Positions 14,201 to 40,464 of a stretch of DNA of 64,000 nucleotides are shown here, piece by piece. This DNA comes from an uncultured Klebsiella sp. (GTDB taxonomy: Bacteria; Verrucomicrobiota; Verrucomicrobiia; Limisphaerales; SXTU01). Within the stretch, counting starts at the first letter, position 1. Every line of letters starts with the position of its first letter. Below the pieces are notes generated by a model that saw only the letters and a program-made list of their open reading frames with translations, made no database searches and was not told the DNA's origin. The translations under genes were made by a program, and so were the position numbers. The stretch lies in the NCBI GenBank assembly GCA_964578245.1, contig CAZOCL010000002.1, positions 1,730 through 65,729 on the forward strand, given 5' to 3'.

Positions 14201-15391
14201 ACCCTCCAACTCAGTCTCCGCTGCCAACACTTCATCCTCCAGCATGGCCAGCACGGTCAGCTTGCGGCGGAGCAGTTCCTCGCGCAGCTCTGCCCACGTT
14301 GCGAAGAACGGATCGTTCTCGGGCACCATCTCGCCGTAATCCTCGGCGTGACGCTCGATGGCGGCGGGGTCGCAGAGGAGGACGATGGCGTCGTCGGGGA
14401 GATAATCGAGCAGCGTCGCCAGTGGCGCGTGGCCTTCAGGCCGCTTCGACGTGGTGGCTTCGGGCGTTTCCGAGGCTGCTGGAGCCGACTGGACTCCGTC
14501 CGGTGAAGCGGCCTGAAGGCCGCGCGCCACGCCTACCTCGCGCTTGAGCACTCCGAGTTCCCCAGCGGGTGGTAGGGTGATCTGGTCCAGCTCCCCGCCG
14601 TCGCGCGAGATTTGGGTGACGGGATCGAAGGTGCGCAGGGATTCAAGTTCATCGCCGAAGAATTCCAACCGCACTGGCCAGGGGCTGGTGAGCGGAAAGA
14701 CGTCCACGATGCCGCCGCGCAGGGCGATGTCGCCCTTCGCCGAGACCTGCGCCTCGGAGTCGTAGCCGTTGTCCTCCAGCCACTCGATGAGGTCCATGGG
14801 CTCGATGCGGTCGCCGCGGCGCAGGGTGCGCATGCGGTCGGCCAGCATGGCGGGCGGGAAGGTGCGCTGGAGGAGGGCGGTGATGCTGGTGGTGAGCAAT
14901 GCGGAACGCGGAGTGCGGAATGCGGAATCAAGGCCGGGCGCTTGCGGGCTCGGATTCCGCACTCCGCCTTCCGCACTCCGCATTAACTCCACCAACGTTT
15001 CGAGGCGTTCACTGATGACGTCCGCGTGAGGCAGCTTGTCCTGATGCGGCAGGATTTCCCAGGCGGGGAAGAAGAGGGGGCGCGGATGCTGGATGCTGGA
15101 TGCTGGATGCTGGATGGCCGAGGAGTTCCGCGGTCCGCTGTGGCCGAGCCAGGTTTCCAGGTCTTGCTGGAGGACTTCCTGTGCCTTGAGATTCTCCGCT
15201 ACGAGCACTACTGGACGGGCGGGAAGTTCCTGATGCAGCCAGGCAGCGAGAAAGGCATGAGCGGAGCCGGTGATCCCCTCACACGTCAATGCGCCGCCCG
15301 ACTCCACACGCCGCAGCAGGGCCTGCGCGGCGGGAGCTTGGCGGAGCCGCGTGAACAGATGGTCGAACATACGGGCCGAAGCCCGTTTCAA
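11255..15391 (-). CDS. mfd: Transcription-repair coupling factor Mfd, expanded by in-frame repeat insertions
   Basis: [11 protein letters not shown] Walker [11 protein letters not shown] box, helicase C-terminal motifs (LRGRVGR) and the CarD-like region [12 protein letters not shown]. It is 1378 codons; the start may instead be MFDHLF at 15370. Confidence 0.95.
11704..11789. repeat. Heptamer arrays inside mfd: (gcgtggt)x4, a spacer, then (cacggaa/cacgcaa)x3
   Basis: 11704-11736 is gcgtggt repeated. 11765-11789 is cacggaa cacggaa cacgcaa cacg. They are translated in Mfd as ...[16 protein letters not shown]... Confidence 0.85.
13714..13751. repeat. 'ccctcacccc...ccctctccc-gct-gggagaggg' hairpin element inside mfd
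   Basis: Read directly from the sequence. It encodes ...[13 protein letters not shown]... in Mfd. An inverted copy lies at 14118-14163. Confidence 0.8.
13812..13835. repeat. Copy of the 'ccgcc-tgaa-ggcgggactccgaac' element inside mfd
   Basis: ccgcctgaaggcgggactccgaac belongs to the same family as the 9897-10011 arms. It is translated as SESRLQAAS. Confidence 0.85.
14118..14163. repeat. Inverted copy of the 'gggagaggg...ggggtgaggg' element inside mfd
   Basis: ctttctccctcgcccccatcgggggagagggctggggtgaggg, translated as [15 protein letters not shown]. Confidence 0.8.
14501..14533. repeat. Second copy of the 11221-11251 hairpin element, this one inside mfd
   Basis: cggtgaagcggcctgaaggccgcgcgccacg is identical over 31 nt to 11221-11251. 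It is translated as [11 protein letters not shown]. Confidence 0.9.
14901..14983. repeat. Long imperfect hairpin of 'gcggaat/gcggagt' heptamers inside mfd
   Basis: The arm gcggaacgcggagtgcggaatgcggaatc (14901-14929) faces gattccgcactccgccttccgcactccgcat (14952-14983). It is translated as [21 protein letters not shown]. Confidence 0.85.
15084..15115. repeat. Tandem heptanucleotide array (ggatgct) of about 4.5 units inside mfd
   Basis: ggatgctggatgctggatgctggatgctggat, translated on the minus strand as [14 protein letters not shown]. Confidence 0.9.
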
Positions 15392-28527: not shown

Positions 28528-29118
28528 TCACCGCCCGAACTGCTTCAGAAACGCCGCCGCGTCGAAACCGTCCGGCTTGAAGACCAGTTCCGGGTTCAAC
28601 GGCGGTTCATAGCCCGCGTCCACCCCGGTCATCTCCCGCAGGGCACCGGTGGCCGCCCGACGGTAAAGCCCCTTGGGATCGCGTTGCTGGCAGACCACCA
28701 GCGGCGTGTCGGCGAACACCTCGATGAACTGGCCGGGGGCAAAGGTCCGGCGGAGGGCGTCCCGCTGCGCGCGGAAGGGCGAGATGCAGGCCACCACCAC
28801 GGTGAAGGACTGCGCCACCAGCACGCGCGCCATCTCGCCGATGCGCCGGACGTTCTCATGCCGGGCAGCCTCCGAGTATCCCAGGTCCGCGTTGACGGTC
28901 CGACGCAGGTCGTCCCCATCCAGCACCACGACCGGGAGGTTCTGTGACTGCAGCGCGGCCTGAATGCGCTGGGCGAGTGTGGTCTTGCCAGCGGCGGGCA
29001 GGCCGGTGATCCAGATCACGGCGGGCAACTCAAGGGTGGCGGTGGGTGCGCTCAACGGCAGAAAGCAGGCGGCAATTGCACGGGAAAGGCAAGCCGAAGC
29101 CAGCCTCTCCGGGGACAA
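28528..29118 (-). CDS. cysC: Adenylylsulfate (APS) kinase
   Basis: VIWITGLPAAGKTTLA P-loop, LDGDDLR, ACISPFR and PKGLYRRA are canonical APS-kinase blocks. The start is TTG. Confidence 0.88.
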   Translation of the reverse strand: MSPERLASACLSRAIAACFLPLSAPTATLELPAVIWITGLPAAGKTTLAQRIQAALQSQNLPVVVLDGDDLRRTVNADLGYSEAARHENVRRIGEMARVLVAQSFTVVVACISPFRAQRDALRRTFAPGQFIEVFADTPLVVCQQRDPKGLYRRAATGALREMTGVDAGYEPPLNPELVFKPDGFDAAAFLKQFGR

Positions 29119-29161: not shown

Positions 29162-29920
29162 GTGTTCGCCCAGCTCAAAGCCAGCCTCAAGAACTGGCAG
29201 CACTCTCGCTCGGCCCCGGCCCGCGTGGTTTATCAAGTTTCCCGGCTGGGCTGGTTGGGCTGCCGTCTGCTCGTGGATGCCCGCCTGCGGGCGGAGACCC
29301 TCGGCCACTGGCGGCACCGCGCCGCCTATCTTCAGCCAGCCACGGAAACCTACCTCAATCGTTATCCCGGGCTGTTCAGGCAATGCCGACTGCGGTTCGC
29401 CGAACATCCTAATCCCCGGATCCTCTCGTTTGGCTGCTCGACCGGAGAGGAGGTCCGCTCCCTGGCCAAACACCTGCCGCAGGCGGTCATTGTAGGGGTG
29501 GACATCAATGACTGGTGCCTGTCCGAGTGCTGGCGCAAGGACCCGCACCACCGGCACACCTTCCTTCATCGGCTATCTGCGGAGTTTGAACGAGAGCCGG
29601 CTTTCGATGCCATCTTCTGCATGGCCGTCCTGCAGCATACGCTGAACCGCGCCAGCGCCGACAATGCCGTGGCCCAAGGCATCACCTTCGAGGAATTCGC
29701 GCGCGAAGTGGCCGTGCTGGATGCCAAGCTGAAAACCGGCGGCCTGCTCTTTCTGGATCATGTGGACTTCCGTTTTGGGGACACGCCCTGCGCCAGCCGC
29801 TACACCCCGCTGGACTTTCCAAGAAATCGCGCCCCGCGCCCGCGGCCCATCTACGGGCCGGATCACCGCAAGCTGGCTGACGTGCAGGACACGCCAAGGG
29901 TGTTCGTCAAGCAGCGCTGA
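29162..29920 (+). CDS. Class I SAM-dependent methyltransferase (lasso-cluster associated)
   Basis: ILSFGCSTGEEVRSLA (motif I) and VGVDIND. GTG start, divergent from cysC with a 43-nt gap. Confidence 0.6.
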   Translation: MFAQLKASLKNWQHSRSAPARVVYQVSRLGWLGCRLLVDARLRAETLGHWRHRAAYLQPATETYLNRYPGLFRQCRLRFAEHPNPRILSFGCSTGEEVRSLAKHLPQAVIVGVDINDWCLSECWRKDPHHRHTFLHRLSAEFEREPAFDAIFCMAVLQHTLNRASADNAVAQGITFEEFAREVAVLDAKLKTGGLLFLDHVDFRFGDTPCASRYTPLDFPRNRAPRPRPIYGPDHRKLADVQDTPRVFVKQR

Positions 29921-30034: not shown

Positions 30035-30967
30035 GTGGCTCCGACACTGGACCCTCTTCCGCCGCACCGACACCGCGTCTATGGCCTGACCATCGCGGCA
30101 TGGATTCCCTTTCCCCAGTTGCCAACGGCACCGGCAGACGCCCCTGTGGACGCTGTCTTCCGCCTCGGCGAGGTGCCGGCGGAGCTGCCGGATTTCAAGA
30201 GCCGGGGTGCCCGCTTCCGGGTTGCGCCGGGCAGATTGCTGGTCTGGATTAACGGCGTGGCGCGCTATCTGGTGGTGGACGGCCGGGAGATCATCGTCCA
30301 GCCGGCCCCGGACGCGGAGGAGAACGACCTGCGCGAGCTGCTCCTCTGCTCGCCGATGGGTGCCCTGCTGCATCAACGCGGCGTGCTGCCGCTGCATGCC
30401 AGCGTCATCGCCACCCCGCGCGGGGCGGTCGCGTTCATGGCCCACTCCGGGCATGGCAAGTCCACCCTCGCCGCGCACTTCCGCCAGCGCGGCTTCAAGA
30501 TTCTCGCCGATGACATCGCAGCGGTGTCCTTTGATGCGGGGGGGAGGCCGATGGTCGCGCCGGGCTACCCCCAGTTCAAACTCTGGCCGGACTCCGTCAA
30601 CGAACTGGGCCACAGCACGACGGATCTGCGTCAGTTCCGGACGAATGTGGAGAAGTTCTTCCTCACGTTCCCAGACGCCTTCCACTCCGAGCCGCTGCCG
30701 CTCACGCAACTGTATGTGGTGGAGGGACGGAATGACGCTGACGGGGTGACATTGGAGCCCTTGAGCGTGCCGGACAAGCTGCGCTACCTCCTCACCCACA
30801 CTTACCGCGCCCAGTATGTGCCTGGGCTCGGCCGGGAGAAGGCCCACTTCCAGACCGTGGGGCGGCTGGCGGCCACAGTTTCCGCCAAGCGCGTGCGGCG
30901 GCCCACCGATGGCACCTTCCGCCTCGAACAACTGGCCGACGCCTTGACGGCCGATTTTGCGCGATGA
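30035..30967 (+). CDS. HPr-kinase-like serine kinase (lasso peptide kinase type)
   Basis: LHASVIATPRGAVAFMAHSGHGKSTLAA P-loop, as in the HprK C-terminal domain. GTG start, followed by cluster genes. Confidence 0.75.
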   Translation: MAPTLDPLPPHRHRVYGLTIAAWIPFPQLPTAPADAPVDAVFRLGEVPAELPDFKSRGARFRVAPGRLLVWINGVARYLVVDGREIIVQPAPDAEENDLRELLLCSPMGALLHQRGVLPLHASVIATPRGAVAFMAHSGHGKSTLAAHFRQRGFKILADDIAAVSFDAGGRPMVAPGYPQFKLWPDSVNELGHSTTDLRQFRTNVEKFFLTFPDAFHSEPLPLTQLYVVEGRNDADGVTLEPLSVPDKLRYLLTHTYRAQYVPGLGREKAHFQTVGRLAATVSAKRVRRPTDGTFRLEQLADALTADFAR

Positions 30968-31809
30968 AAGGCATCGTCTGGCTGGCGAGTTATCCGAAGT
31001 CCGGTAACACTTGGTTCCGGATTTTCCTCGCCAACCTGCTGGCCGACCAGCCGACGCCGGTGGACATTAACGCCATTGAAACCGAGAACTTCGCCGCTCG
31101 AACCACTTATGACCGGGCGCTGGGCTGGGAGACCTCCGACCTGACGCTGGCGGAAGCGTCCCAAGCCCGCCTCGATGTGCAGGAAGCCCTCGCACTGGAG
31201 GACAATGTCTTCTTCAAGGTCCACGAGTCCTTCCGTGATCCAGTCAGCCACGCGCTGCTGTTCTCCCGGGTCGCGACCCGAGCTGTGTTCTACTTTCTCC
31301 GCAACCCGCTGGATGTGGCAGTCTCCTTCAGCCATCATCGGGGCAGGGACCTCGACAACACCATTGTCCGGATGAACAATCCAAACGCCACCATTGCGCC
31401 AGGCCAGGACGGACTGGGACCGCAATTACCCCAGCCCACGGGCGACTGGAGCTGGCATGTGCGGAGCTGGGCCGACGAACCGGGGCTGCCCGTGCTGGTC
31501 CTGCGCTACGAGGACATGCTGGCGCGCCCGCAGGAGGTGTTTCAAGCAGCCTGTGAGTTCGCTGGCCTGCCCAGCGAGCCAGCCCGGGTGGCCCGCGCAC
31601 TGAACCATGCCCGGTTTGAGAATGTCCGCGCGCAGGAGCAGGCAAAAGGCTTCCGTGAGGCGATGGACCGGCGCCCCTTTTTCCGGCATGGCAAGGCTGG
31701 CGGCTGGCGTGAAACCTTGTCGCCAGCGCAGGTTGCCGCTATCGTCTCCCAACATGGCGATGTCATGCGGCGCTTCGGATACCTGAACGCCGATGGTTCG
31801 CCGGTGTAA
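30964..31809 (+). CDS. PAPS-dependent sulfotransferase
   Basis: SYPKSGNTWFR (5'-phosphosulfate binding loop) and FLRNPLDVAVSFSHH (3'-phosphate binding). ATGA overlap with the kinase gene. Confidence 0.82.
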   Translation: MKGIVWLASYPKSGNTWFRIFLANLLADQPTPVDINAIETENFAARTTYDRALGWETSDLTLAEASQARLDVQEALALEDNVFFKVHESFRDPVSHALLFSRVATRAVFYFLRNPLDVAVSFSHHRGRDLDNTIVRMNNPNATIAPGQDGLGPQLPQPTGDWSWHVRSWADEPGLPVLVLRYEDMLARPQEVFQAACEFAGLPSEPARVARALNHARFENVRAQEQAKGFREAMDRRPFFRHGKAGGWRETLSPAQVAAIVSQHGDVMRRFGYLNADGSPV

Positions 31810-31814
31810 GTTTT

Positions 31815-31913
31815 CACACCACGAATGAACACGAATGAACACGAAGATGGCCATGCAGGGCAGAAGCGCCATTCTCCCGGCTTGAATTCGTGTGCGTTGG
31901 TGTGCATTCGTAG
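31815..31913. repeat. Foldback of 'acgaatgaac' units between the sulfotransferase and B1 genes
   Basis: cacaccacgaatgaacacgaatgaacacgaag (31815-31846) faces cttgaattcgtgtgcgttggtgtgcattcgtag (31881-31913); the pairing is imperfect. Confidence 0.75.
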
Positions 31914-31929
31914 TTTCTGATTTTTGCCT

Positions 31930-32217
31930 ATGACCAAGACCGCCCTCACCCTCCAGTCTGTCGTCGCCCAGTCGCCTGATCTGGTCGGGACGAACATCGA
32001 GGACCACACCGCGCTCCTGAGCATCACCAACGGTGCGTATTACAGCCTGGACCCCGTGGCCAGCCGCGTCTGGCAGCTCATTGAGCAGCCGCGCCCGGTG
32101 ACGGCGGTCGTGGACCATTTGCTCACCGAATACACCGTGGAGCGGGCCACTTGCGAGGCGCACACGCTCGCCTTCCTCCAGCAGCTCGCCGACGCCGATC
32201 TGCTGGCCAAGCAGTAA
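31930..32217 (+). CDS. Lasso peptide biosynthesis B1 protein (PqqD-family RRE)
   Basis: LLSITNGAYYSLDPVASRVWQLIEQPRPVTAVVDHLLTEYTV...AFLQQLADADLL is a PqqD-like winged helix. Confidence 0.82.
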   Translation: MTKTALTLQSVVAQSPDLVGTNIEDHTALLSITNGAYYSLDPVASRVWQLIEQPRPVTAVVDHLLTEYTVERATCEAHTLAFLQQLADADLLAKQ

Positions 32218-32663
32218 TGTCCCGCCTCGCCAAGTTTCTCCGGCATGACTGGGCCGGACGCGGCCTGCTGCTGGAGGCGCTGGCCTGGCTGGTCTGGGCC
32301 AAGCTGCTCCTGCTGGTCGTCCCGTTTCGCTGGATTGCGCCGCGCCTGGGCAGGCCAATGACGGAGAGCGCCGCCAGCCTGACCGAGCCCGGAAGCCTGC
32401 TTGCCTCCCGAATTTCCTGGGCCGTGCAATCCGTGGCGGCAAACGTGCCGCTAGGGCTGGTCTGCCTGCCGCAAGCCATGGCGGCCAAATGGATGCTCCG
32501 CCGCAGGCACCTCGCCAGCACGCTTTACCTCGGCGTGGCCCGGCCGGATGAGGCGAAGTTCACCGCGCACGCCTGGCTCCGCGCCGGCAACAAGATCCTG
32601 ACCGGCCGCGCCGAGAGCCGCACCCACACCACGCTCGCCTCCTTTGCTGAGGAATGGCCGTGA
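32217..32663 (+). CDS. Lasso peptide biosynthesis B2 protein (transglutaminase-like leader protease)
   Basis: TAATG overlap with B1. CLPQAMAAKWML (catalytic Cys) and FTAHAWL (His), with the size and N-terminal hydrophobic helix typical of B2. Confidence 0.82.
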   Translation: MSRLAKFLRHDWAGRGLLLEALAWLVWAKLLLLVVPFRWIAPRLGRPMTESAASLTEPGSLLASRISWAVQSVAANVPLGLVCLPQAMAAKWMLRRRHLASTLYLGVARPDEAKFTAHAWLRAGNKILTGRAESRTHTTLASFAEEWP

Positions 32664-32688
32664 ATTCCATCCCGCCTGCCGCGTTCCG

Positions 32689-34605
32689 ATGAGCGCTCTC
32701 TGCGGCTTCCTCAACCTCGACGCCGCTCCGGCTGACTCCCAGCTCGTCGCGGCGCAGGTGGCCCGATTGCAGCATCGCGGGCCGGACGGTTCCGGCACGT
32801 TCACGGAGGGTCCCTGCGCGCTGGGCCATCTGCTCCTGCGCATCACGCCGGAGGCGGACGGGGAAACGTCTCCCTTTCACAGCCCGGACGACCAGCTCGT
32901 GATCGCCTTCGACGGCCGGCTGGATCACCGCGAGGACCTGCTGGCCGCGCTCGGCGTCCCGCCCTCGGAGCGTGGCCTGCCCGATCCCGCGCTCATCCTC
33001 CGCGCGTATGCGCAGTGGGGTGCCGATTGCGTGACCAGGCTCGACGGCGAGTTTGCCTTCGCCGTCTGGGACCGGCGGCGGCAGGAGTTGTTCTGCGCGA
33101 GTGACGCTTTTGGCAGCCGCCCGTTTTACTTTTACCAGGACGCGCGGCGGCTGGTGTTTGCCAGCGCCATCCGCGGCGTGCTGGCCGTGCCCGGGGTGCC
33201 GCGCGAACTCGACGAGCTGTCCCTCGCCTGCTCGCTCGGAGGCGCGCCCCAACCGCCGGGCCAGACGCTCTACGCCCGCATTTCCTTTCTGCCCGGTGGT
33301 CGCACGCTGACCGTGCCGCGCGGTGGCCGGCCGGTGATCCGGACCTGGTGGCAGTTGACGATGGAACCGGAAATCCAGCTCCGCTCCACCGAAGACTATA
33401 CCGAGGCCTTGCGTGAACTGCTGGAGCGGGCCACGCGCTCAGCCATGCGCACGCGGCATCCGGTGGGTGCCATGCTCAGCGGCGGGCTGGACTCCAGCGG
33501 CGTAGCCTGCCTCGCTGCGCGCGACCTCGCCTCGCGCGGCCAGCGGCTCGTCACGGTGTCCACGGTGTTGCCCGAGGATTTCCAAGGCGTGGAATGGGAG
33601 AAGGAGGAAAGCGCGTTCATCCGCAGCGCCCTGGAGCGCTACCCGAACATGGCCCCGCACTGGGCGCGGGGCCTGGCTTTTCCAGTCATCACCTTCAATG
33701 ACGCGGCCTACCAGTTGCACGACGAGCCTGACAACGATCCAAAATCTTTCCGGACAGCGGAGCTGTTCCGGCTTGCGGAGCAGGCGGGGACGCGCGTCCT
33801 GCTCGGCGGCATGGGGGGCGACATGGCCGCTTCGTTCAAGGGCACCGGTTACCTGCAGCAGCTCGCCCTGGGCGCGCGCTGGGGGGAACTGGTCCGTCAC
33901 CTCCAGTTGCTGGCGCGCGTCCGGGGCGAGACGGTGCCCGGCATCTTCCGGCGCGAAGTGCTCCGGCCGCTGGCCCCCGAATGGCTGCGCCGTTGGAACG
34001 ACACGTTCCGGCACGATGCCGCAGCAACTCGGGATGAGTTCAGCATCCAGCCCGAGTTCGCCGCGCGGATGCAGATGGCCGAACGCCGCCGGGCCGCCGG
34101 ACGGGACATCGAAAGGCCGGCGGATTTCCGACGCCTGCAGGTTTCGCTGGCGAACGCCGGCCTCCTCGGCGGCGGCTCAGGCTGGGCGAGCCGCCACACC
34201 CCGCACATGGAAAGCCCCCAGCCGCTCATGAACCGCCGGCTTTGGGAGTGGTGCCACCGGGTGCCGCTGGGAGAGTTCACGCGGGATGGCATGTCCCGCG
34301 GGCTCTACCGCCGTGCGCTGCACGATGTGCTGCCGGAGCGCATTCTGCGCCGCCACTCCAAAGGCTGGTTCGCGCCGGACTACGTGCAGCGCCTCGCTGC
34401 CTGCCGCCCGGCGATGGAACGCTTCCTCGCGGAGCATCCCGCGCAGGACGCGGTTTGGAATTACGTGAGCCGCCCTCAAGTGGAGGCGACCTTACAGCGT
34501 CTGGCCGCCGCTGGCACTCAGGCCAGATGGGACAATCGTTACCAAATCATCCTGTGTCAGGGCCTCCGGCTAGCACACTTTGTCACTTGGATGCGGGGGC
34601 GGTGA
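32689..34605 (+). CDS. Lasso peptide cyclase (asparagine-synthetase-like, C protein)
   Basis: MSALCGFL N-terminus, MLSGGLDSSGVA PP-loop, and about 640 aa in length. It follows B2. Confidence 0.85.
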   Translation: MSALCGFLNLDAAPADSQLVAAQVARLQHRGPDGSGTFTEGPCALGHLLLRITPEADGETSPFHSPDDQLVIAFDGRLDHREDLLAALGVPPSERGLPDPALILRAYAQWGADCVTRLDGEFAFAVWDRRRQELFCASDAFGSRPFYFYQDARRLVFASAIRGVLAVPGVPRELDELSLACSLGGAPQPPGQTLYARISFLPGGRTLTVPRGGRPVIRTWWQLTMEPEIQLRSTEDYTEALRELLERATRSAMRTRHPVGAMLSGGLDSSGVACLAARDLASRGQRLVTVSTVLPEDFQGVEWEKEESAFIRSALERYPNMAPHWARGLAFPVITFNDAAYQLHDEPDNDPKSFRTAELFRLAEQAGTRVLLGGMGGDMAASFKGTGYLQQLALGARWGELVRHLQLLARVRGETVPGIFRREVLRPLAPEWLRRWNDTFRHDAAATRDEFSIQPEFAARMQMAERRRAAGRDIERPADFRRLQVSLANAGLLGGGSGWASRHTPHMESPQPLMNRRLWEWCHRVPLGEFTRDGMSRGLYRRALHDVLPERILRRHSKGWFAPDYVQRLAACRPAMERFLAEHPAQDAVWNYVSRPQVEATLQRLAAAGTQARWDNRYQIILCQGLRLAHFVTWMRGR

Positions 34606-35050: not shown

Positions 35051-35221
35051 ATGAGCCTTATGAACACGACCACCGCCTCCGCCTCAGTCGAAAACACCGA
35101 GTCCAAGCAGGTTTGGACCGCCCCCACTTTGACGACGCTTTCGCTCCCGCTGGGAACGCTTTCCAATGCTGCCACCGGTGCGGATGGCATGTCGTCGAAA
35201 GCGGCGGGAAGCCTAAGCTAA
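35051..35221 (+). CDS. Lasso peptide precursor A1 (56 aa)
   Basis: MSLMNTTTASASVENTESKQVWTAPTLTTLSLPLGTL|SNAATGADGMSSKAAGSLS. It has a WxxPxL leader motif, Thr at -2 and Asp at core position 8. Its paralog is at 36727. Confidence 0.8.
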   Translation: MSLMNTTTASASVENTESKQVWTAPTLTTLSLPLGTLSNAATGADGMSSKAAGSLS

Positions 35222-35248
35222 GACCATCTTTTTCGTCGGTTCCAATTT

Positions 35249-35285
35249 GCCAAAAGTCCTCCTCGCGAGTGCTTTTGGCTTTTTT
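35249..35285 (+). terminator. Rho-independent terminator after precursor A1
   Basis: Stem gccaaaag (35249-35256) paired with cttttggc (35272-35279), followed by tttttt (35280-35285). Confidence 0.65.
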
Positions 35286-35343
35286 GTGATCCGATCCGTC
35301 AGCCATTTTTCACGTTCACGTTCACGTCTCTCGCCTTCCCCAC

Positions 35344-36495
35344 ATGTATAGCTTGCGCGGTTATGGAGAAATGATCGCGGATGAAGGCCGGGCCACCGCC
35401 TTCGAGCAATCGATCCGTGCCGCCGTCAAGCCACAGTCTGTGGTGCTCGAGCTGGGCACGGCCACCGGGCTGATGGCCCTCTGGGCTGCGCAGGCCGGTG
35501 CGCGCCATGTCCATGCCGTCGAGCCAGATAAATCCATCGTCCTCGCCCGACAAAGTGCGAGAGACAATGGGTTTGCCAGCCGCATTACCTGTCATCAGAA
35601 GCTGTCCACCCAGCTCACGCTGTCGGAGCGGGCGGACGTGTTCATAGAGGATTTGCGCGGGTCCATGCCGTGCTGCAGGACTCGGTTGCTGGACATCATG
35701 GACGCGCGGGCGCGGCTGCTCACGCCGGATGCGACTTTGATCTGCCAGCGGGATACGTGCTTCGTCACGGTGGCCGAGGCCGAGAAGCCGTCGCGTCACA
35801 TGCACGCAGTGTGGGACGGAAGCCGCTGGGGGCTGGACTTGAGGGCGGTGCAACGGCTGGCACCCAATTGCATGACCCATCATCGCTGCGCCCCCGAGGA
35901 ACTGCTAGCGGAACCGCGCGCCTGGGCGGAGATTCACTACCCGACCGTCAGTTCGCCCCATGTGCGGGGCGCGGCGGAGCTCACTGTCCTTCGTCCTGCC
36001 ACCGCGCACGGGCTGGCGCTCTGGTTCGACGCGGAACTGTTCGGCGGCATCCGTTTCTCGAATGCCCCAAGCGAGCCGAAGCACGTTTACAACAATGCCT
36101 TCCTGCCATGGCCAGCACCCACGCCCCTGCAGGCGGGCGACCGGGTGGTGGTGAAGCTGGACGCGGTCTTTACTGGCGGAGAATATGAGTGGAACTGGGC
36201 GAGCACCGTCTGGCGCGAAGGCGCGGCGGAACCCGTCGCGCGGTTCAGCCAGTCCACGTTACAAGGCCGGCCGGTTTCCGCGCCGGCACTGGCCCTTCGC
36301 ACCGGCAGCTTCCGCCCGCACCGCAATGACGCCGCCGAAGTGGAGCGCTTCCTGCTCGAACGCATGGATGGCCAGGCCACCAACGACCAACTGGCCGCCG
36401 CGCTCCGCACCCAGTTTCCCAATGCCTTCCCCACCGACACCGCCGCGCTCGCCCGCGTGGTGGACACCGTGGAGAAGTTCAGCGCTACGAGTTGA
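35344..36495 (+). CDS. PRMT-like class I methyltransferase with a PqqD/RRE-like C-terminal domain
   Basis: VLELGTATGLMALWAAQAGARHVHAVE (PRMT-type motif I) and a beta-barrel-like middle region. The C-terminal FLLERMDGQATNDQLAAALRTQFP...ALARVVDTVEKF resembles PqqD. Confidence 0.65.
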   Translation: MYSLRGYGEMIADEGRATAFEQSIRAAVKPQSVVLELGTATGLMALWAAQAGARHVHAVEPDKSIVLARQSARDNGFASRITCHQKLSTQLTLSERADVFIEDLRGSMPCCRTRLLDIMDARARLLTPDATLICQRDTCFVTVAEAEKPSRHMHAVWDGSRWGLDLRAVQRLAPNCMTHHRCAPEELLAEPRAWAEIHYPTVSSPHVRGAAELTVLRPATAHGLALWFDAELFGGIRFSNAPSEPKHVYNNAFLPWPAPTPLQAGDRVVVKLDAVFTGGEYEWNWASTVWREGAAEPVARFSQSTLQGRPVSAPALALRTGSFRPHRNDAAEVERFLLERMDGQATNDQLAAALRTQFPNAFPTDTAALARVVDTVEKFSATS

Positions 36496-36506
36496 ACCGC
36501 GAGCGC

Positions 36507-36626
36507 TCACCATCCCAGCCACGCGCGCAGGCCGCCGCTGATGAACAGCACCGCTGGATCGCAGGCCAGACATGCCCAGATGCAGGAGAATGACTCCGGC
36601 CATGAACACCGCCGCCGTCAGCCCGC
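36507..36626 (-). pseudogene. Truncated, frame-disrupted copy of the 3' end of membrane-protein gene 37908..38747
   Basis: Minus-strand reading gives GLTAAVFMAGVILLHLG, then a deletion of about 37 nt, then WACLACDPAVLFISGGLRAWLGW*. The intact gene reads AAVFVAGVFLLHLG...WAFLACYPAVLFTSGGLRTWLGW*. Confidence 0.75.
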
Positions 36627-36726
36627 GCGAATGCGTTCGTCACTGCCAGTTGAAGAATGAAAGACTTGCAGGTTCGCGGGCAATACGACTATCCTCCACA
36701 AGGTTTTACCGCAGGGATTTGTGAAC

Positions 36727-36876
36727 ATGAACACCGCCACCGTCGAAAACACTGATGGGTCCAAGCAGGTTTGGACCGCCCCCACTTTGACAACGCTTTC
36801 GCTCCCGCTGGGAACGCTGGCCACCGGTAACAATGGTTCGGATGGTGGCGTCATGGCCAGCACCACCAGGAGTTAG
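36727..36876 (+). CDS. Lasso peptide precursor A2 (49 aa)
   Basis: MNTATVENTDGSKQVWTAPTLTTLSLPLGTL|ATGNNGSDGGVMASTTRS. About 60 nt of the leader are near-identical to A1. It is below the ORF-track cutoff. Confidence 0.8.
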   Translation: MNTATVENTDGSKQVWTAPTLTTLSLPLGTLATGNNGSDGGVMASTTRS

Positions 36877-37041: not shown

Positions 37042-37815
37042 TCAAAACAAGCCCGTGTCGTAGTGTTTCAGCCACCGGAACAGTCCACGGTGCTCCTCCG
37101 GAATGGCAGCCAGACGCTCTGGTGAAATCTTCATAAATGGCTGCTGGCGGTAGTTCTGGTAGTCCTTGAACCACGGGCGGTGATACACGCAGTAGAGCAT
37201 GGGCCGAGGCTGGTCGGAAAGGTTCGCGGTGCCGTGATGGAACAGCCGGTAGTCCACCAGCAGGCCGCAGCCCAGCGGCACGGTGGGATCCAGCCCGGGA
37301 GTTGCCTTGCCCTCCTCGTCCGGTTTCAAGTGCGAGCCGGGCATCAGGCGGGTGGTGCCGTTGGTTGCGTTGAACTCGCGGAGCGGGATGAAGAGATTGA
37401 CCGCGTGGGGCGGGAGAAAACGGTTTAGCACGGGACCGAACAGCAGCGGGTTGTCCCGATGAAGGTGCTGGTCCTTGGCTCCCGGCAAGGATGTGACTGA
37501 GGCAAAGCTGCCCAGCACCAAGTCCGACCCGAGCAACTGCTGGAGCACCGGCAGGACGAGCGGGTTGGCGTAAAGCGCCGCATCAAGAAAGGGCATCTCC
37601 ATCTCCAAAGTAACCATGAACCGGCGGCTGCCCACCTTGAGCGCATCCCCTGGCCGGTCTTCGTCGAAATACCGGGCGTAACGCTCGCAATACACTTCAC
37701 CGAGCTGGCTGACGAGTTCACGGGGCAGCAGGTCACGAACGAGCAGGCATCCATGACGGCGAAATTGCTCGGCGCAGCTTTCCGGAGTCGAGGCGGCGGT
37801 GAGTTCGGGAACCAT
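37042..37815 (-). CDS. PhyH-family Fe(II)/2-oxoglutarate dioxygenase
   Basis: DQHLHRD (HxD) and LFHHGTAN (distal His). The length and pattern are those of phytanoyl-CoA-dioxygenase-like hydroxylases. Confidence 0.75.
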   Translation of the reverse strand: MVPELTAASTPESCAEQFRRHGCLLVRDLLPRELVSQLGEVYCERYARYFDEDRPGDALKVGSRRFMVTLEMEMPFLDAALYANPLVLPVLQQLLGSDLVLGSFASVTSLPGAKDQHLHRDNPLLFGPVLNRFLPPHAVNLFIPLREFNATNGTTRLMPGSHLKPDEEGKATPGLDPTVPLGCGLLVDYRLFHHGTANLSDQPRPMLYCVYHRPWFKDYQNYRQQPFMKISPERLAAIPEEHRGLFRWLKHYDTGLF

Positions 37816-37907
37816 GGGCGCAATTGAACAACCGGGGATTTACGACTGCAAGCGTGGGCTGCCACCCCCAGCCGCAGATGGCCTGCCGTTCGGTGCGATG
37901 GCGAAAC

Positions 37908-38747
37908 TCACCACCCCAGCCACGTGCGCAGCCCGCCGCTGGTGAACAGCACCGCTGGATAGCAGGCGAGGAAGGCCCATAGAAACGGCGCGAGGCCCAT
38001 GAAGTGGCCGATGCCGAGGTGCAAGAGGAAGACCCCGGCCACAAACACCGCCGCCACCGGCCCGCCCGTCAGCCAGGCCAGCGGGAAGCCGATCTCCAAC
38101 ACGAGCGCGCCCCAGGTCGCCGTCCGATTCACTGCGGGGTGCGCGGCCAGCCACGCCGCCAGCCGGCGGTCTCCCATCAGGTCCTGCCGCAGCAGGCAGC
38201 CGATGGCTTCTCCCGAGCGCCAGGCCCCGGTCGTGAGGGCCTTGAGCACACCGCTCGTGAAGTAGGCCAGCGCGCACTGACCGGCGATGAACCACAGGAC
38301 CGCCTGCGCCACGGATGCGCTCGCCGGCGCGAGTTCCCGCAGCACGAGCGCGCCCAGCACGGCAAGCCGCATCCGGTCCGCCCCGAGCACGCCCAGACCG
38401 AATTGCCGCACATTGATCAGCACGGCGGCCACCACGCCCAGCCACAAGGCGAGGGGACGCACCACGGGGTCGGCCGGCACCAGCACCAGCACCAGCCCGG
38501 CGAGCAGTCGGGCCACCTGGAGGGCAGCAAACCCGGTGGCGCGGAACAGGCAACCCAGCGCCACCGGACCTTCGCCCCGCAGGCGCGAGCGCTGGCGCAG
38601 CAGTGGCCAGCCCAGCACCGCGTCATCCGCCCAGGCGTTGCGGGCGGCCAGCCATTCGGCCGCCGAAACCGCGAGACTGACGCCAGCAAGCCGTGTGACC
38701 AGTGTCACGCACGCGAAGGGATCCTGCAGCCAGACGGCGTCAATCAC
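37908..38747 (-). CDS. Polytopic membrane protein, unknown function
   Basis: About 8 hydrophobic segments. The GTG start overlaps the upstream stop (GTGA). No family was recognised with confidence. Confidence 0.6.
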   Translation of the reverse strand: MIDAVWLQDPFACVTLVTRLAGVSLAVSAAEWLAARNAWADDAVLGWPLLRQRSRLRGEGPVALGCLFRATGFAALQVARLLAGLVLVLVPADPVVRPLALWLGVVAAVLINVRQFGLGVLGADRMRLAVLGALVLRELAPASASVAQAVLWFIAGQCALAYFTSGVLKALTTGAWRSGEAIGCLLRQDLMGDRRLAAWLAAHPAVNRTATWGALVLEIGFPLAWLTGGPVAAVFVAGVFLLHLGIGHFMGLAPFLWAFLACYPAVLFTSGGLRTWLGW

Positions 38748-39280
38748 ACGGCCTCCCCTCCCGTTGCCAGCGGCAGAAACTCGGAGGTGTAGAGGCGCTG
38801 CTCGGGGGCGTCCGCCGTGATCAGCAGTTGCTCGCGCAGTTCAAACTGCCGCGCGGTCGTTCCCGGCGGGCCGGCCACGCCCGCCACGCAGTGCCATAAA
38901 GCCCGCCAGGCTGGAGTGCTGGCCAGGCGTTCCGCCGGCAGCGCGGCGCGCACGCGGTCGGCCAGCAGCTCCGCGAGCGAATACTGCGCGTCGGCTGCGA
39001 ACAGCTCCGGATTGAAGAACGCGCGCCAGGGCCGCTGGCTGCGCTCGGCAGGCAACCACCGCCATTCGCCGACGCTCCCAGCGGCATCCCGGTCGCGATA
39101 ATAGAGCCGCACATTCGTCGGGAGCCCGGTGTAAAGCCGCCAGCTCGGCACGAGCCGTAAGAAGTCGAATCGCGCCATGACTGCGGTCAGGCGGGTGAAG
39201 CACAGTTGGTAGGCCACGGAGACGGCGAACCATGCTGCCAGCAGCAGGAGGGCGAGCCATTCCATGACGGCGAGATTCAT
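38744..39280 (-). CDS. Membrane-anchored hypothetical protein
   Basis: ATG at 39280 (MNLAVMEWLALLLLAAWFAVSVAY...) in an ATGA overlap with the upstream gene. The longer 39460 start overlaps that gene and is unlikely. Confidence 0.5.
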   Translation of the reverse strand: MNLAVMEWLALLLLAAWFAVSVAYQLCFTRLTAVMARFDFLRLVPSWRLYTGLPTNVRLYYRDRDAAGSVGEWRWLPAERSQRPWRAFFNPELFAADAQYSLAELLADRVRAALPAERLASTPAWRALWHCVAGVAGPPGTTARQFELREQLLITADAPEQRLYTSEFLPLATGGEAV

Positions 39281-40464
39281 GATTGGGCAGCGAGCCGCCG
39301 CTTCACCCACAGCAGCGGCCAGAGCACGTAGTAGAGGGCGAACCACCGGTCCGGGAGGGGCAGCGTCTGCCAGTCCGCCGGGTTCACCACGCGCGGACGC
39401 AACATGCGGAGGCGCACGCGCCAGCTTGGCTGCAGCCGCCAGGCGTAGCCAACCATCCACCAGTGCGCCGAGCCGGTCTTGATTTCATCCGGCGTCAGCT
39501 CCATGTGGCGGCAGGCGTCGTCCACGAGCTGGGTGAGCACGGGAGTTTCCGGCGGAGCCGGCAGCCCGGCCGGCAGCGGCACGGCGAGGAGTTCACGCGC
39601 GAGCAGGACGCTCTGCCAGAAGACGCGCTCCAGTTTCGTCGCCTCCGCCCGGGCGAGCAGGCGCGGCCAGTCGAGTGTGCCAGCCTGCATCAGCAGCGCG
39701 ATGTCCAGGAGCCAGAAGAGCCGGAACCAGCCGTGGTCCGCGCCGTGCAGGAGCAGGTGCAGCGCGGCCGTCTCCGCCGGCAGCACGGCGATGCGCTGGC
39801 CCGCAATGGTCGCCGTGCCCGGAGCTTCCCCCAGCGTGCTGCGGTGGAAGTGCTCGTGGTTCACCAGCCGCCACATGATCTCCAATCGCAGCGCGCCGTC
39901 CGCGCTGAAATACTCAAACTCATGACGCACGCTGAAGTATTTCTGCTGCTGGAGCGGCGTGAGCGGAAAGTCCGGCTGGGTGCGACGGAACCCGGCGTCT
40001 TGCAGCAGCCGGTCCGCGCGTTCGGCGTCCGCCTGGCGGATCAGCAGGTCCAGGTCGCCCGAGTGGCGCAGGCCCAGATCGCCATACAAGTCGCGAGCCA
40101 GCAGCGGCCCTTTCACGCTCGTGACGGGGATGCCGGCTTGTTCGAGCAGCTTCACGAGGCGCGTCAGTTCGCCGGTGCGCTGCATGGCGCGGAGGGCGGT
40201 GTCCCGGGCACTGCTGGCGAGCCGCTGGCGCACTGCCTCCGGCAGCGCGGCCAAAGCCTCGCGGGGCAGCCGTTGTTGCAGGAACGCACCCACGCGATGC
40301 CGCTCGACGAGGGCCAGGAACGTGCCGGCGTCCGTGCCCTCCGGCCAGGGCAACTCCGGCGGCGCAGTGCGCAGCGCGACCCGCAAGGCGTGGAGGAGGA
40401 GGCGTATTTCCGCCGGCCAGTGGCGGGCGCGGCCGGGGAGTTCCAGGGGTGGCACGGGGTTCAT
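39277..40464 (-). CDS. NTP_transf_5-type uncharacterised nucleotidyltransferase
   Basis: ATG at 40464 (MNPVPPLELPG...). VKGPLLARDLYGDLGLRHSGDLDLLI (G..hS.DlDlL motif) and HGADHGW are typical of this family. Confidence 0.65.
   Translation of the reverse strand: MNPVPPLELPGRARHWPAEIRLLLHALRVALRTAPPELPWPEGTDAGTFLALVERHRVGAFLQQRLPREALAALPEAVRQRLASSARDTALRAMQRTGELTRLVKLLEQAGIPVTSVKGPLLARDLYGDLGLRHSGDLDLLIRQADAERADRLLQDAGFRRTQPDFPLTPLQQQKYFSVRHEFEYFSADGALRLEIMWRLVNHEHFHRSTLGEAPGTATIAGQRIAVLPAETAALHLLLHGADHGWFRLFWLLDIALLMQAGTLDWPRLLARAEATKLERVFWQSVLLARELLAVPLPAGLPAPPETPVLTQLVDDACRHMELTPDEIKTGSAHWWMVGYAWRLQPSWRVRLRMLRPRVVNPADWQTLPLPDRWFALYYVLWPLLWVKRRLAAQS

What the first reader, a model, noticed from the sequence alone, without database searches (positions are those of the whole stretch)
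35051..36876. Two paralogous precursors with conserved leader, predicted 8-residue rings and plug-poor Gly/Ser/Thr-rich tails ending in Ser
A1 (35051-35221) and A2 (36727-36876) share about 60 near-identical nucleotides encoding SKQVWTAPTLTTLSLPLGTL. They then diverge completely.

The leader carries an aromatic-xx-P-x-L motif (WTAPTL), like the YxxPxL RRE-binding motif, and has Thr at -2 relative to a cut after GTL. The predicted cores are:
- SNAATGADGMSSKAAGSLS
- ATGNNGSDGGVMASTTRS

Both have a small residue 1 (Ser/Ala), Asp at position 8 (giving an 8-membered macrolactam) and a C-terminal Ser. Neither tail contains Phe, Tyr, Trp or His. Only Met and one Lys or Arg are available as steric plugs, which is unusual for threaded lassos. 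Enzymatically added bulky or charged groups may therefore act as the lock.
Basis: partly seen in the sequence, partly recalled or inferred. Interest (0 to 1): 0.85.

Follow-up and report, generated by a model that had tools for sequence, protein, structure and literature searches.

The report
Two phosphoserine-type lasso peptide precursors
These two small genes are very probably genuine precursors of knotted "lasso" peptides of an already known type whose last serine is phosphorylated, and their lack of bulky locking residues, which looked odd, is common in that type.

Summary
A1 (35051/35060-35221) and A2 (36721/36727-36876) share a 59-nt leader segment with one mismatch (chance expectation 0) and have unrelated cores. 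They lie in a complete split-B lasso cluster: PqqD/B1, B2, cyclase C, an HprK-like kinase, a sulfotransferase with an APS kinase, an NTP_transf_5 nucleotidyltransferase, two methyltransferases, a PhyH dioxygenase and an MFS pump.

In eight clade precursors the W-x-x-P-T-L-T-T-L motif, Thr(-2), Gly6 and Asp8 are invariant. Against the syntenic ortholog, the leader shows 4 synonymous and 0 non-synonymous changes, and the terminal Ser-Leu-Ser is kept through synonymous codon switches.

The "unusual" traits are typical of the type. Of 54 predicted cores next to kinase homologs, 43 end in Ser, 38 have 8-residue rings and 22 have no aromatic or His residue in the tail. A C-terminal Ser is the known substrate of paeninodin-type kinases. 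A lock made of bulky C-terminal modifications was already proposed for pseudomycoidin (PMC6993621).

Verdict: a new member of a known kind, from an uncultured Limisphaerales-like verrucomicrobium. Its tailoring set is richer and uncharacterised. A2 and the dioxygenase arrived as a later insertion.

The parts
28528..29118 (-). APS (adenylylsulfate) kinase; probable PAPS supply for the sulfotransferase
   Evidence: Pfam APS_kinase, E 3.4e-53. Conserved next to the cluster in L008, L011 and L109.
29162..29920 (+). Class I SAM methyltransferase (MT1); substrate unknown
   Evidence: Pfam Methyltransf_12/23/25. Found only in L008 and L009 among the relatives.
30035..30967 (+). HprK-like lasso-peptide kinase; predicted to phosphorylate the C-terminal Ser of the linear precursors
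   Evidence: NCBIfam HprK_rel_A, weak hit. Homologs carry PF27840/PF07475. His121, Lys142, Asp159 and Asp160 are present. 33% identical to the kinase beside a precursor I recognise as paeninodin-like in Bacillus locus L080.
30964..31809 (+). Sulfotransferase; target unknown
   Evidence: Pfam Sulfotransfer_1, E 2e-25. Lies directly downstream of the kinase in 36 of 79 loci.
31924..32217 (+). B1, the PqqD-type RRE leader-binding protein
   Evidence: Pfam PqqD, E 7.5e-18. NCBIfam lasso_PqqD_Bac, E 2.5e-20.
32151..32663 (+). B2 leader peptidase (transglutaminase-like Cys protease)
   Evidence: Pfam Transglut_core3, E 8e-24. NCBIfam lasso_biosyn_B2, above its cutoff. Cys (LVCLPQ) and His (AHAW) are present.
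32644..34605 (+). C, the lasso macrolactam cyclase (Asn-synthase homolog)
   Evidence: Pfam Asn_synthase plus GATase_6/7. NCBIfam lasso cyclase, E 9.5e-118 but below the curated cutoff.
35051..35221 (+). Precursor A1 (alternative start at 35060). Leader ends ...WTAPTLTTLSLPLGTL. Core is SNAATGADGMSSKAAGSLS.
35249..35285 (+). Hairpin followed by a U-run after A1; probable intrinsic terminator or attenuator
   Evidence: Fold of the 69-nt 35222-35290 window containing the hairpin: -19.5 kcal/mol, z -3.1. Conserved in L008, where the inner stem differs in sequence but still pairs. The consensus scan missed it because the stem is A/U-rich.
35344..36495 (+). PRMT-fold methyltransferase (MT2) between A1 and A2. 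It lacks the arginine-binding signature; its substrate is unknown.
   Evidence: PDB PRMT2/PRMT6, E about 1e-16. In the alignment the double-E loop positions read Asp/Arg and THW reads HVY. Homologs sit in lasso-like clusters.
36506..36629 (.). Decayed copy of the 3' end of the HTTM/SdpB-like gene; a scar of the insertion that brought in A2 and PhyH
   Evidence: 79-88% identical to 37907-38068, with a 38-bp deletion. Its left flank matches the MT2/HTTM junction of L008.
36727..36876 (+). Precursor A2 (alternative GTG start at 36721). Same leader as A1. Core is ATGNNGSDGGVMASTTRS.
37042..37815 (-). PhyH-family Fe(II)/2-oxoglutarate dioxygenase, present only in this genome's version of the cluster
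   Evidence: Pfam PhyH, E 1.9e-16. PDB KanJ, E 2e-16. Absent from L008 and from all 79 loci.
37908..38747 (-). HTTM/SdpB-like polytopic membrane protein
   Evidence: NCBIfam export_SdpB, weak hit at E 7e-6. Conserved in L008 at 86%.
38744..39280 (-). 178-aa protein of unknown function with an N-terminal hydrophobic segment
   Evidence: No family hit. Gene call in L005. 73% identical in L008.
39277..40464 (-). NTP_transf_5 nucleotidyltransferase, which I take to be the family of PsmN
   Evidence: Pfam NTP_transf_5, E 6.6e-57. 395-aa gene call. 28% identical to the homolog in the Bacillus cluster L080. PsmN function is described in PMC6993621.
40816..42399 (-). MFS transporter; candidate exporter
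   Evidence: Pfam MFS_1, E 6.5e-18. Not conserved in relatives, so membership in the cluster is uncertain.

Best explanation
A1 and A2 are two functional precursor genes of one split-B lasso-peptide pathway of the paeninodin/pseudomycoidin type.

Proposed sequence of events:
1. The PqqD protein B1 binds the shared leader through W(-16)-x-x-P(-13)-x-L(-11).
2. [quoted passage not shown]
3. B2 cuts after Thr(-2)-Leu(-1).
4. The cyclase C joins the new amino terminus (Ser1 in A1, Ala1 in A2) to Asp8, closing an 8-residue ring around the tail. The products are 19 and 18 residues long.
5. The NTP_transf_5 enzyme, the sulfotransferase (fed by the adjacent APS kinase), the two methyltransferases and the dioxygenase add further decoration. 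This probably happens on or near the phosphorylated terminus.

Basis of each step. Shown here by sequence: the gene content, the conserved leader and ring positions, purifying selection on the leader and the terminal residues, and the catalytic motif of the kinase. Inferred from characterised homologs: the order of the steps and phosphorylation of the terminal Ser. Hypothesis only: the modified terminus, together with the conserved penultimate Leu or Arg, is what keeps the tail threaded.
For: Cluster content: B1, B2, C, kinase, sulfotransferase, APS kinase and NTP_transf_5.

Precursor conservation:
- In eight clade precursors the WTxPTLTTL motif, Thr(-2), Gly6 and Asp8 are invariant. The C-terminus is always Ser or Thr, and the penultimate residue is Leu in 7 of 8.
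- A1 versus its ortholog in the syntenic cluster L008: 20 leader codons show 4 synonymous and 0 non-synonymous changes. The ring shows 1 conservative change. The terminal SLS is kept through AGC>TCA and CTA>TTG. The loop and tail are hypervariable, with indels.

Family context:
- A leader HMM finds precursors in 45 of the kinase-anchored loci.
- Of 54 predicted cores, 43 end in Ser against a 10% background, and 38 have 8-residue rings.
- The kinase has the His-Lys-Asp-Asp motif, which is required in lasso kinases (PMC9266682).

Literature:
- The paeninodin kinase acts on the linear precursor at the C-terminal Ser, and proteobacterial homologs polyphosphorylate it (PMC8498205).
- PsmN, an NTP_transf_5 enzyme, adds hexose to the phosphate. 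Unmodified pseudomycoidin unthreads on purification (PMC6993621).

Multi-precursor loci with one leader and different cores are common in this family: 8 sources, plus L123 with three precursors.
Against: - There are no expression, mass-spectrometry or topology data.
- The cyclase and kinase score below the curated NCBIfam cutoffs for their nearest named models.
- No sigma-70 consensus promoter was found near A1 or A2.
- A2 has no terminator hairpin and no ortholog anywhere, so its use by the pathway rests on sequence integrity alone.
- Some kinase-linked precursors in other lineages do not end in Ser or Thr, so the link between kinase and terminal residue is not absolute.
Confidence: 0.8

Rival explanations
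1. The ordinary side chains (Met10, Lys13 and Leu18 in A1; Val11, Met12 and Arg17 in A2) are enough to hold an 8-residue ring. The C-terminal modifications then serve another purpose, such as solubility, export, target binding or self-protection, and are not a mechanical lock.
For: - In solved lasso structures the residues flanking the ring come from 17 of 20 (upper) and 14 of 20 (lower) amino acid types (PMC12214591).
- From my own knowledge, not checked here: 8-residue-ring lassos such as benenodin-1 are held by Glu/Gln.
- A penultimate Leu or Arg is conserved in the clade.
- I take the aromatic-bearing L080 core to be paeninodin-like, so by inference paeninodin itself carries an aromatic residue in its tail and is still phosphorylated (PMC8498205).
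Against: - Unmodified pseudomycoidin purifies as a branched-cyclic peptide, and a Leu-to-Phe change is needed to lock it (PMC6993621).
- Many family members have almost featureless tails, for example DGGGGNQGS in sphingomonads.
Confidence: 0.35
2. A2 is a passenger of a recent insertion and is not matured, or only poorly. A1 is the real substrate.
For: - A2 and PhyH are absent from the syntenic relative L008, where MT2 abuts the HTTM gene.
- A decayed HTTM 3' fragment marks the insertion.
- A2 has no ortholog in 5.8 billion proteins and no terminator hairpin.
Against: - The A2 ORF is intact.
- Its RRE-binding segment differs from A1 by one synonymous base.
- It keeps Thr(-2), Gly6, Asp8 and the terminal Ser.
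- It keeps the AAAGACTTG element found upstream of A1 and, on reading the L008 sequence, upstream of the L008 precursor too.
- It is identical in three independent metagenome runs (read).
- Multi-precursor loci are common in this family.
Confidence: 0.12
3. The mature products are branched-cyclic (unthreaded) peptides in vivo, not true lassos.
For: - The tails lack aromatic residues.
- Wild-type pseudomycoidin was isolated in branched-cyclic form (PMC6993621).
Against: - The same study showed that the cyclase makes a threaded product that unthreads later.
- Lasso cyclases close the ring around a pre-folded tail (established knowledge).
- The modifications here are installed before cyclisation in the characterised homologs (PMC8498205).
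Confidence: 0.15
4. The cut site or the ring is different from the prediction. One example is cleavage after TLTTL, giving a core that starts SLPLGTL...
For: A second Thr-x pair (T-L) lies upstream in the leader.
Against: - That core would have no Asp or Glu at positions 7-9.
- In eight homologs only the GT-L / ET-H / ET-Q / NT-L site is followed by an invariant Gly6 and Asp8.
- The spacing from Trp to the cut (15-16 residues) matches most of the family.
Confidence: 0.03

Closest known systems
Paeninodin (Paenibacillus dendritiformis) and the ThcoA/SyanA precursors with their HprK-like kinases PadeK, ThcoK and SyanK
   Same: - Split B1/B2 plus C plus an HprK-like kinase with the His-Lys-Asp-Asp motif.
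- A leader with W-x-x-P-x-L and Thr(-2).
- A core ending in Ser, which the kinase phosphorylates on the linear precursor.
- The sphingomonad precursors found here (e.g. SQRGATPDGGGGNQGS; I take these to be SyanA-like) share the Ser1-Asp8 ring and the Gly-rich tail without aromatic residues (PMC8498205, PMC9266682).
   Different: - Only 33-39% kinase identity.
- I recall paeninodin as having a 9-residue ring and aromatic tail residues; the core in L080 that I take to be paeninodin-like shows both.
- This cluster adds a sulfotransferase with an APS kinase, two methyltransferases, a dioxygenase and an HTTM-like membrane protein.
- An MFS pump lies adjacent here. I recall an ABC exporter (the D gene, PMC8498205) in the paeninodin cluster; the flanks beyond 28.5-42.4 kb were not screened for one.
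- The host is a verrucomicrobium.
Pseudomycoidin (Bacillus pseudomycoides): PsmK kinase plus PsmN nucleotidyltransferase
   Same: - A kinase and an NTP_transf_5 gene in one lasso cluster.
- A C-terminal Ser.
- A tail too weakly plugged to stay threaded without help.
- The published proposal that the phospho-hexose terminus is the lock (PMC6993621).
   Different: - The nucleotidyltransferase is only about 28% identical to the Bacillus-type homolog in L080.
- The ring here is 8 residues, not 9.
- Extra tailoring genes are present.
- There is no evidence here for leader-independent cyclisation.
Uncharacterised kinase-sulfotransferase lasso clusters noted in genome-mining papers (PMC4289311, PMC8498205)
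   Same: An HPr-kinase homolog and a sulfotransferase sit side by side in a lasso cluster. This pairing occurs in 36 of 79 loci across many phyla.
   Different: No product of such a cluster has been described in the literature I could search, including reviews to 2026. There is therefore nothing chemical to compare with.

Membership tests
Lasso peptide precursor (class II, split-B pathway) | Encoded next to a PqqD/RRE (B1), a transglutaminase-like protease (B2) and an Asn-synthase-like cyclase (C) | tested here: met
   B1 at 31924-32217, B2 at 32151-32663 and C at 32644-34605, with A1 446 nt downstream of C.
Lasso peptide precursor (class II, split-B pathway) | Leader with an aromatic-x-x-P-x-L recognition motif and Thr at the penultimate leader position | tested here: met
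   W(-16), P(-13), L(-11) and T(-2) are invariant in 8 clade homologs. The same pattern appears in precursors from 45 other loci.
Lasso peptide precursor (class II, split-B pathway) | Core of about 15-30 residues with Asp or Glu at position 7, 8 or 9 | tested here: met
   Cores of 19 and 18 residues. Asp8 is invariant in the clade, and residue 1 is Ser or Ala.
Lasso peptide precursor (class II, split-B pathway) | Mature product has a threaded (rotaxane) topology | not testable with these tools
   Needs NMR, ion mobility or a carboxypeptidase assay on the isolated product.
C-terminally phosphorylated lasso peptides (paeninodin / pseudomycoidin type) | HprK-like kinase in the cluster with the catalytic His-Lys-Asp-Asp residues | tested here: met
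   His121, Lys142 (Walker A: HSGHGKST), Asp159 and Asp160. The motif is described in PMC9266682, and the Asp pair was mutated in PsmK (PMC6993621). The hit to the named NCBIfam models is only weak.
C-terminally phosphorylated lasso peptides (paeninodin / pseudomycoidin type) | Precursor ends in Ser | tested here: met
   Both A1 and A2 end in Ser. Of 54 kinase-linked cores, 43 end in Ser against a 10% background. The terminal Ser is kept through a three-base codon switch in the ortholog.
C-terminally phosphorylated lasso peptides (paeninodin / pseudomycoidin type) | The terminal Ser is actually phosphorylated on the linear precursor | not testable with these tools
   Needs an in vitro kinase assay or MS of the product.
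Phosphoglycosylated lasso peptides (pseudomycoidin) | PsmN-type NTP_transf_5 enzyme in the cluster | tested here: met
   Pfam NTP_transf_5, E 6.6e-57. A homolog is present in 22 of 79 kinase loci. Its chemistry here is unknown.
Protein arginine methyltransferase (for MT2, 35344-36495) | PRMT catalytic core and beta-barrel fold | tested here: met
   phmmer to PRMT2/PRMT6 structures, E about 1e-16 over residues 4-268. This is sequence similarity only; no structure was predicted.
Protein arginine methyltransferase (for MT2, 35344-36495) | Double-E loop and THW loop that bind the substrate guanidinium | tested here: not met
   In the alignment to PRMT2, the two Glu positions (located from my own knowledge of the PRMT motif) are Asp and Arg, and THW is HVY.
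Protein arginine methyltransferase (for MT2, 35344-36495) | An Arg is available in the substrate | tested here: not met
   The cores that accompany MT2 orthologs in L008, L109 and L123 contain no Arg or Lys. MT2 is therefore not filed as a PRMT.

The most novel reading that the evidence does not exclude
In this verrucomicrobial clade the mechanical lock of the lasso is not a side chain. It is an enzymatically built C-terminal stopper: a phospho-Ser/Thr extended by the NTP_transf_5 enzyme, then sulfated (sulfotransferase plus a dedicated APS kinase) and/or methylated (by a PRMT-fold enzyme that has lost its arginine pocket). That would be the first demonstrated 'third strategy' for holding a lasso. 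It would also be a new terminal chemistry, a sulfated or methylated phospho-glycosyl end. The A2/PhyH cassette would be a recently added second product.
Probability: 0.2. Interest if true: 0.7.

Novelty: new member of a known kind. Interest (0 to 1): 0.35.

Why it matters
This is a clean, compact candidate for testing a hypothesis that has been open since 2019: whether post-translational groups on the last residue can replace bulky side chains as the lock of a lasso peptide. Here the tails are nearly featureless. The kinase, the nucleotidyltransferase and a sulfotransferase with its own PAPS supply are all present. A natural pair of substrates shares one leader.

It also points to the kinase-sulfotransferase pair, found in 36 of 79 loci across many phyla. 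No product of that pair is described in the literature I could search. Otherwise this is an ordinary genome-mining hit for a known RiPP sub-family.

Tried and rejected
- Exact look-up of the A1 peptide in the contig index found nothing. The source contig itself could not be retrieved, so taxonomy rests on the nearest relatives (Limisphaerales/Verrucomicrobiota MAGs).
- The two primary papers on lasso kinases (JBC 2016, FEBS Lett 2016) are not held. Their content is cited through reviews.
- The consensus promoter/terminator scan found no promoter and missed the A/U-rich hairpin after A1. I keep the hairpin on the basis of folding and conservation. I make no promoter claim beyond a conserved AAAGACTTG element upstream of A1 and A2, which I also read upstream of the L008 precursor.
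- A PDB sequence search with the kinase gave no meaningful hit.
- My first regex for precursors gave many false positives and was replaced by a leader HMM. The automatic cut-site heuristic gives some doubtful first residues (Leu, Asn, Gln, His) in distant loci. Ring-size counts outside the clade are therefore approximate.
- No precursor was found in L012, L029 (only a weak hit) or L037.
- The Rfam and tRNA scans of the window found nothing; the tandem-repeat scan found nothing beyond short arrays (largest 48 nt), one of them in the ST-B1 spacer.
- I considered that MT2 methylates Lys13 or Arg17 to make a bulkier plug. I rejected this because orthologous cores have no Lys or Arg and the Arg-binding loops are not conserved.
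- No structure prediction was run, because it cannot address lasso topology.
Full report
**1. The observation**

The two ORFs exist as described:
- A1 = MSLMNTTTASASVENTESKQVWTAPTLTTLSLPLGTL|SNAATGADGMSSKAAGSLS
- A2 = MNTATVENTDGSKQVWTAPTLTTLSLPLGTL|ATGNNGSDGGVMASTTRS

The segment 35102-35160 recurs at 36760-36818 with one mismatch. No such pair occurs in 100 shuffles of the window. The repeat finder extends the pair to 87 nt at 87% identity, and the sequences then diverge. Both ORFs are called genes in a public NCBI assembly on a 75,458-bp contig, and each is a singleton at 90% identity.

**2. The surroundings**

The region 28.5-42.4 kb is one biosynthetic cluster. In order:
- APS kinase (-)
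- class I methyltransferase MT1
- HprK-like kinase K
- sulfotransferase ST
- PqqD/B1
- B2
- cyclase C
- A1
- a PRMT-fold methyltransferase MT2
- A2
- PhyH dioxygenase (-)
- HTTM/SdpB-like membrane protein (-)
- a 178-aa unknown protein (-)
- NTP_transf_5 nucleotidyltransferase (-)
- MFS transporter (-)

B2 has its Cys and His. K has His121, Lys142, Asp159 and Asp160. This is the His-Lys-Asp-Asp motif that mutagenesis showed to be essential in lasso-peptide kinases (PMC9266682; the Asp pair in PsmK, PMC6993621).

**3. Are the small ORFs real, and is the cut site right?**

The only other homolog among 5.8 billion proteins is a 66-aa peptide. It sits in a fully syntenic cluster of a related MAG, L001/L008. 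Comparing A1 with this ortholog:
- The 20 leader codons SKQVWTAPTLTTLSLPLGTL carry 4 synonymous and 0 non-synonymous differences.
- The ring has one conservative change, Thr to Ser.
- The last three residues, Ser-Leu-Ser, are preserved although two of the three codons changed (AGC>TCA, CTA>TTG).
- The stretch in between is rewritten, with indels.

A degenerate leader pattern run against metagenome contigs gave six more clade precursors, in L088/L109, L113 and L123 (three in tandem); L011 had already come from the genome scan. In the 8-sequence alignment the invariant columns include W, P, T-L-T-T-L, Thr(-2), Gly6 and Asp8. The C-terminus is always Ser or Thr, and the penultimate residue is Leu in 7 of 8. 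Conserved recognition motif, ring-closing residue and terminus with a free loop is the pattern expected of a lasso precursor. It fixes the cut after GT-L and an 8-residue ring. The alternative cut after TLTTL leaves no acidic residue at positions 7-9.

**4. The wider family**

K has more than 1,300 homologs. A genome scan with a kinase alignment returned 79 loci from Verrucomicrobiota, Chloroflexota, Acidobacteriota, Proteobacteria, Actinomycetota, Bacillota, Cyanobacteria and other phyla. The nearest are Limisphaerales/Verrucomicrobiota MAGs.

Of the 79 loci, 57 contain a cyclase homolog, 59 a B1 or B2, and 43 a sulfotransferase. In 36 loci the sulfotransferase lies directly after the kinase. 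22 contain an NTP_transf_5 gene.

A leader HMM found precursors in 45 loci. Of 54 distinct predicted cores:
- 43 end in Ser, against a 10% background for ORF ends in the same DNA;
- 38 have an 8-residue ring;
- 22 have no Phe, Tyr, Trp or His after the ring.

Sphingomonad examples such as SQRGATPDGGGGNQGS are even barer than A1 and A2. Eight sources carry two or three precursors with one leader and different cores.

**5. What is known**

[quoted passage not shown] Proteobacterial and Thermobacillus homologs add up to four phosphates. Sulfotransferase and nucleotidyltransferase genes were noticed in such clusters, but the sulfotransferase was not characterised (PMC8498205, PMC9266682, PMC4289311).
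- In pseudomycoidin, PsmK phosphorylates the terminal Ser and the NTP_transf_5 enzyme PsmN adds one or two hexoses to the phosphate. The unmodified peptide is isolated unthreaded, and a Leu21Phe change locks it. The authors proposed the bulky C-terminal modification as a third way to hold a lasso (PMC6993621).
- Reviews up to 2026 list no sulfated lasso peptide.

**6. Mechanism proposed**

The sequence of steps is given under Best explanation. The gene content, the motifs and the selection pattern are shown here. The order of steps and the phosphorylation are inferred from homologs. The locking role of the modified terminus is hypothesis.

Because the characterised homologs modify the precursor before ring closure, a bulky terminus would not hinder threading. 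It could act as the lower stopper together with the conserved penultimate Leu or Arg. That would imply a long loop and a two-residue tail, the shortest tail seen in solved lassos (PMC12214591).

The main rival is that Met, Lys, Arg or Leu suffice for an 8-residue ring, and that the modifications serve another role.

**7. History of A2**

In L008 the stop codon of MT2 abuts that of the HTTM-like gene, and there is no A2 or PhyH. In the window, 36506-36629 is a decayed copy of the HTTM 3' end with a 38-bp deletion, and its left flank matches the L008 junction. A2 and PhyH, together with an intact HTTM 3' end, were therefore inserted there.

Within the genome, the RRE-binding segments of A1 and A2 differ by one base, whereas the orthologs differ by four. 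The N-terminal leader parts and the cores of the paralogs are far more diverged than those of the orthologs. This suggests that gene conversion, or strong constraint from the single B1, keeps that segment uniform. This is inference.

A2 keeps the AAAGACTTG element found upstream of A1, which I also read upstream of the L008 precursor. A1, but not A2, is followed by a conserved hairpin and U-run.

**8. MT2**

MT2 lies inside the finding's coordinates. It matches PRMT2/PRMT6 structures at E about 1e-16. In the alignment, however, the two Glu positions of the double-E loop are Asp and Arg, and THW is HVY. The cores that accompany its orthologs contain no Arg or Lys.

Its family is small, with 74 hits. 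The members I inspected lie in clusters with an Asn-synthase homolog and PqqD genes in other lineages, next to precursors ending in Ser or Thr. I take it to be a lasso-associated methyltransferase with a PRMT fold and an unknown acceptor.

**9. Verdict**

This is a new member of the known family of C-terminally phosphorylated lasso peptides, from a poorly sampled phylum. It carries an unusually rich and uncharacterised set of tailoring genes. The plug-poor tail and the terminal Ser are common family traits, and the lock hypothesis is published. Interest is moderate, at 0.35. The value lies mainly in being a good experimental system for that hypothesis and for the widespread kinase-sulfotransferase pair.

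Noticed in passing
window 36506-36629 versus 37907-38068: A decayed duplicate (79-88% identity, 38-bp deletion) of the 3' end of the HTTM/SdpB-like gene lies between MT2 and A2. It marks the insertion that brought A2 and the PhyH dioxygenase into a cluster that lacks both in the closest relative.
   Followed up: yes
window 35344-36495; L144, L145, L146, L015, L109, L123: A small family of PRMT-fold methyltransferases (74 database hits). Members lack the double-E and THW arginine-binding loops and sit in lasso-like clusters of several phyla. The accompanying cores often have no Arg or Lys, so the acceptor is unknown.
   Followed up: partly
window 30035-31809 and 28528-29118; 36 of 79 loci (L008-L086): In 36 of 79 loci, across many phyla, a sulfotransferase gene lies directly downstream of the HprK-like kinase. 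In this clade a dedicated APS kinase lies next to the pair. No sulfated lasso peptide appears in the literature searched.
   Followed up: partly
L011, L088/L109, L113, L123: Most sister-clade precursors end in Thr (NLT, SLT, QLT, TLT) instead of Ser; the third L123 precursor ends NQS. The kinases there may therefore accept a C-terminal Thr. L123 carries three tandem precursors upstream of its MT2 homolog.
   Followed up: partly
L033, L034, L061, L063, L065 (leaders ending HVSLDTA): A sub-family of kinase- and sulfotransferase-linked precursors does not end in Ser or Thr (the endings are R, D, I, K and P). The kinase may have another target there, or the cut-site and ORF-end predictions may be off.
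   Followed up: no
L144 and L145: MT2 homologs sit in clusters with two PqqD genes, two JmjC-type hydroxylases and an Asn-synthase homolog. The candidate precursors end in Ser (e.g. ...GKYTMFNIESAPDNGPLPS). This looks like a different tailoring combination.
   Followed up: no
L001/L008 (CAZCBE010000006.1): The closest relative's record is titled 'uncultured Klebsiella sp.'. Its cluster is 86-97% identical (73% for the unknown 178-aa protein) to this window, and the next relatives are Limisphaerales/Verrucomicrobiota MAGs. The label looks wrong.
   Followed up: no
window 31820-31845: A perfect 10-nt tandem repeat (CACGAATGAA, 2.6 copies) in the spacer between the sulfotransferase and B1. Its significance is unknown.
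   Followed up: no
window 35249-35285; L008 about 15298-15334: An A/U-rich hairpin and U-run directly after A1. In the ortholog the inner stem differs in sequence but still pairs. The arrangement would suit attenuated read-through into MT2.
   Followed up: partly
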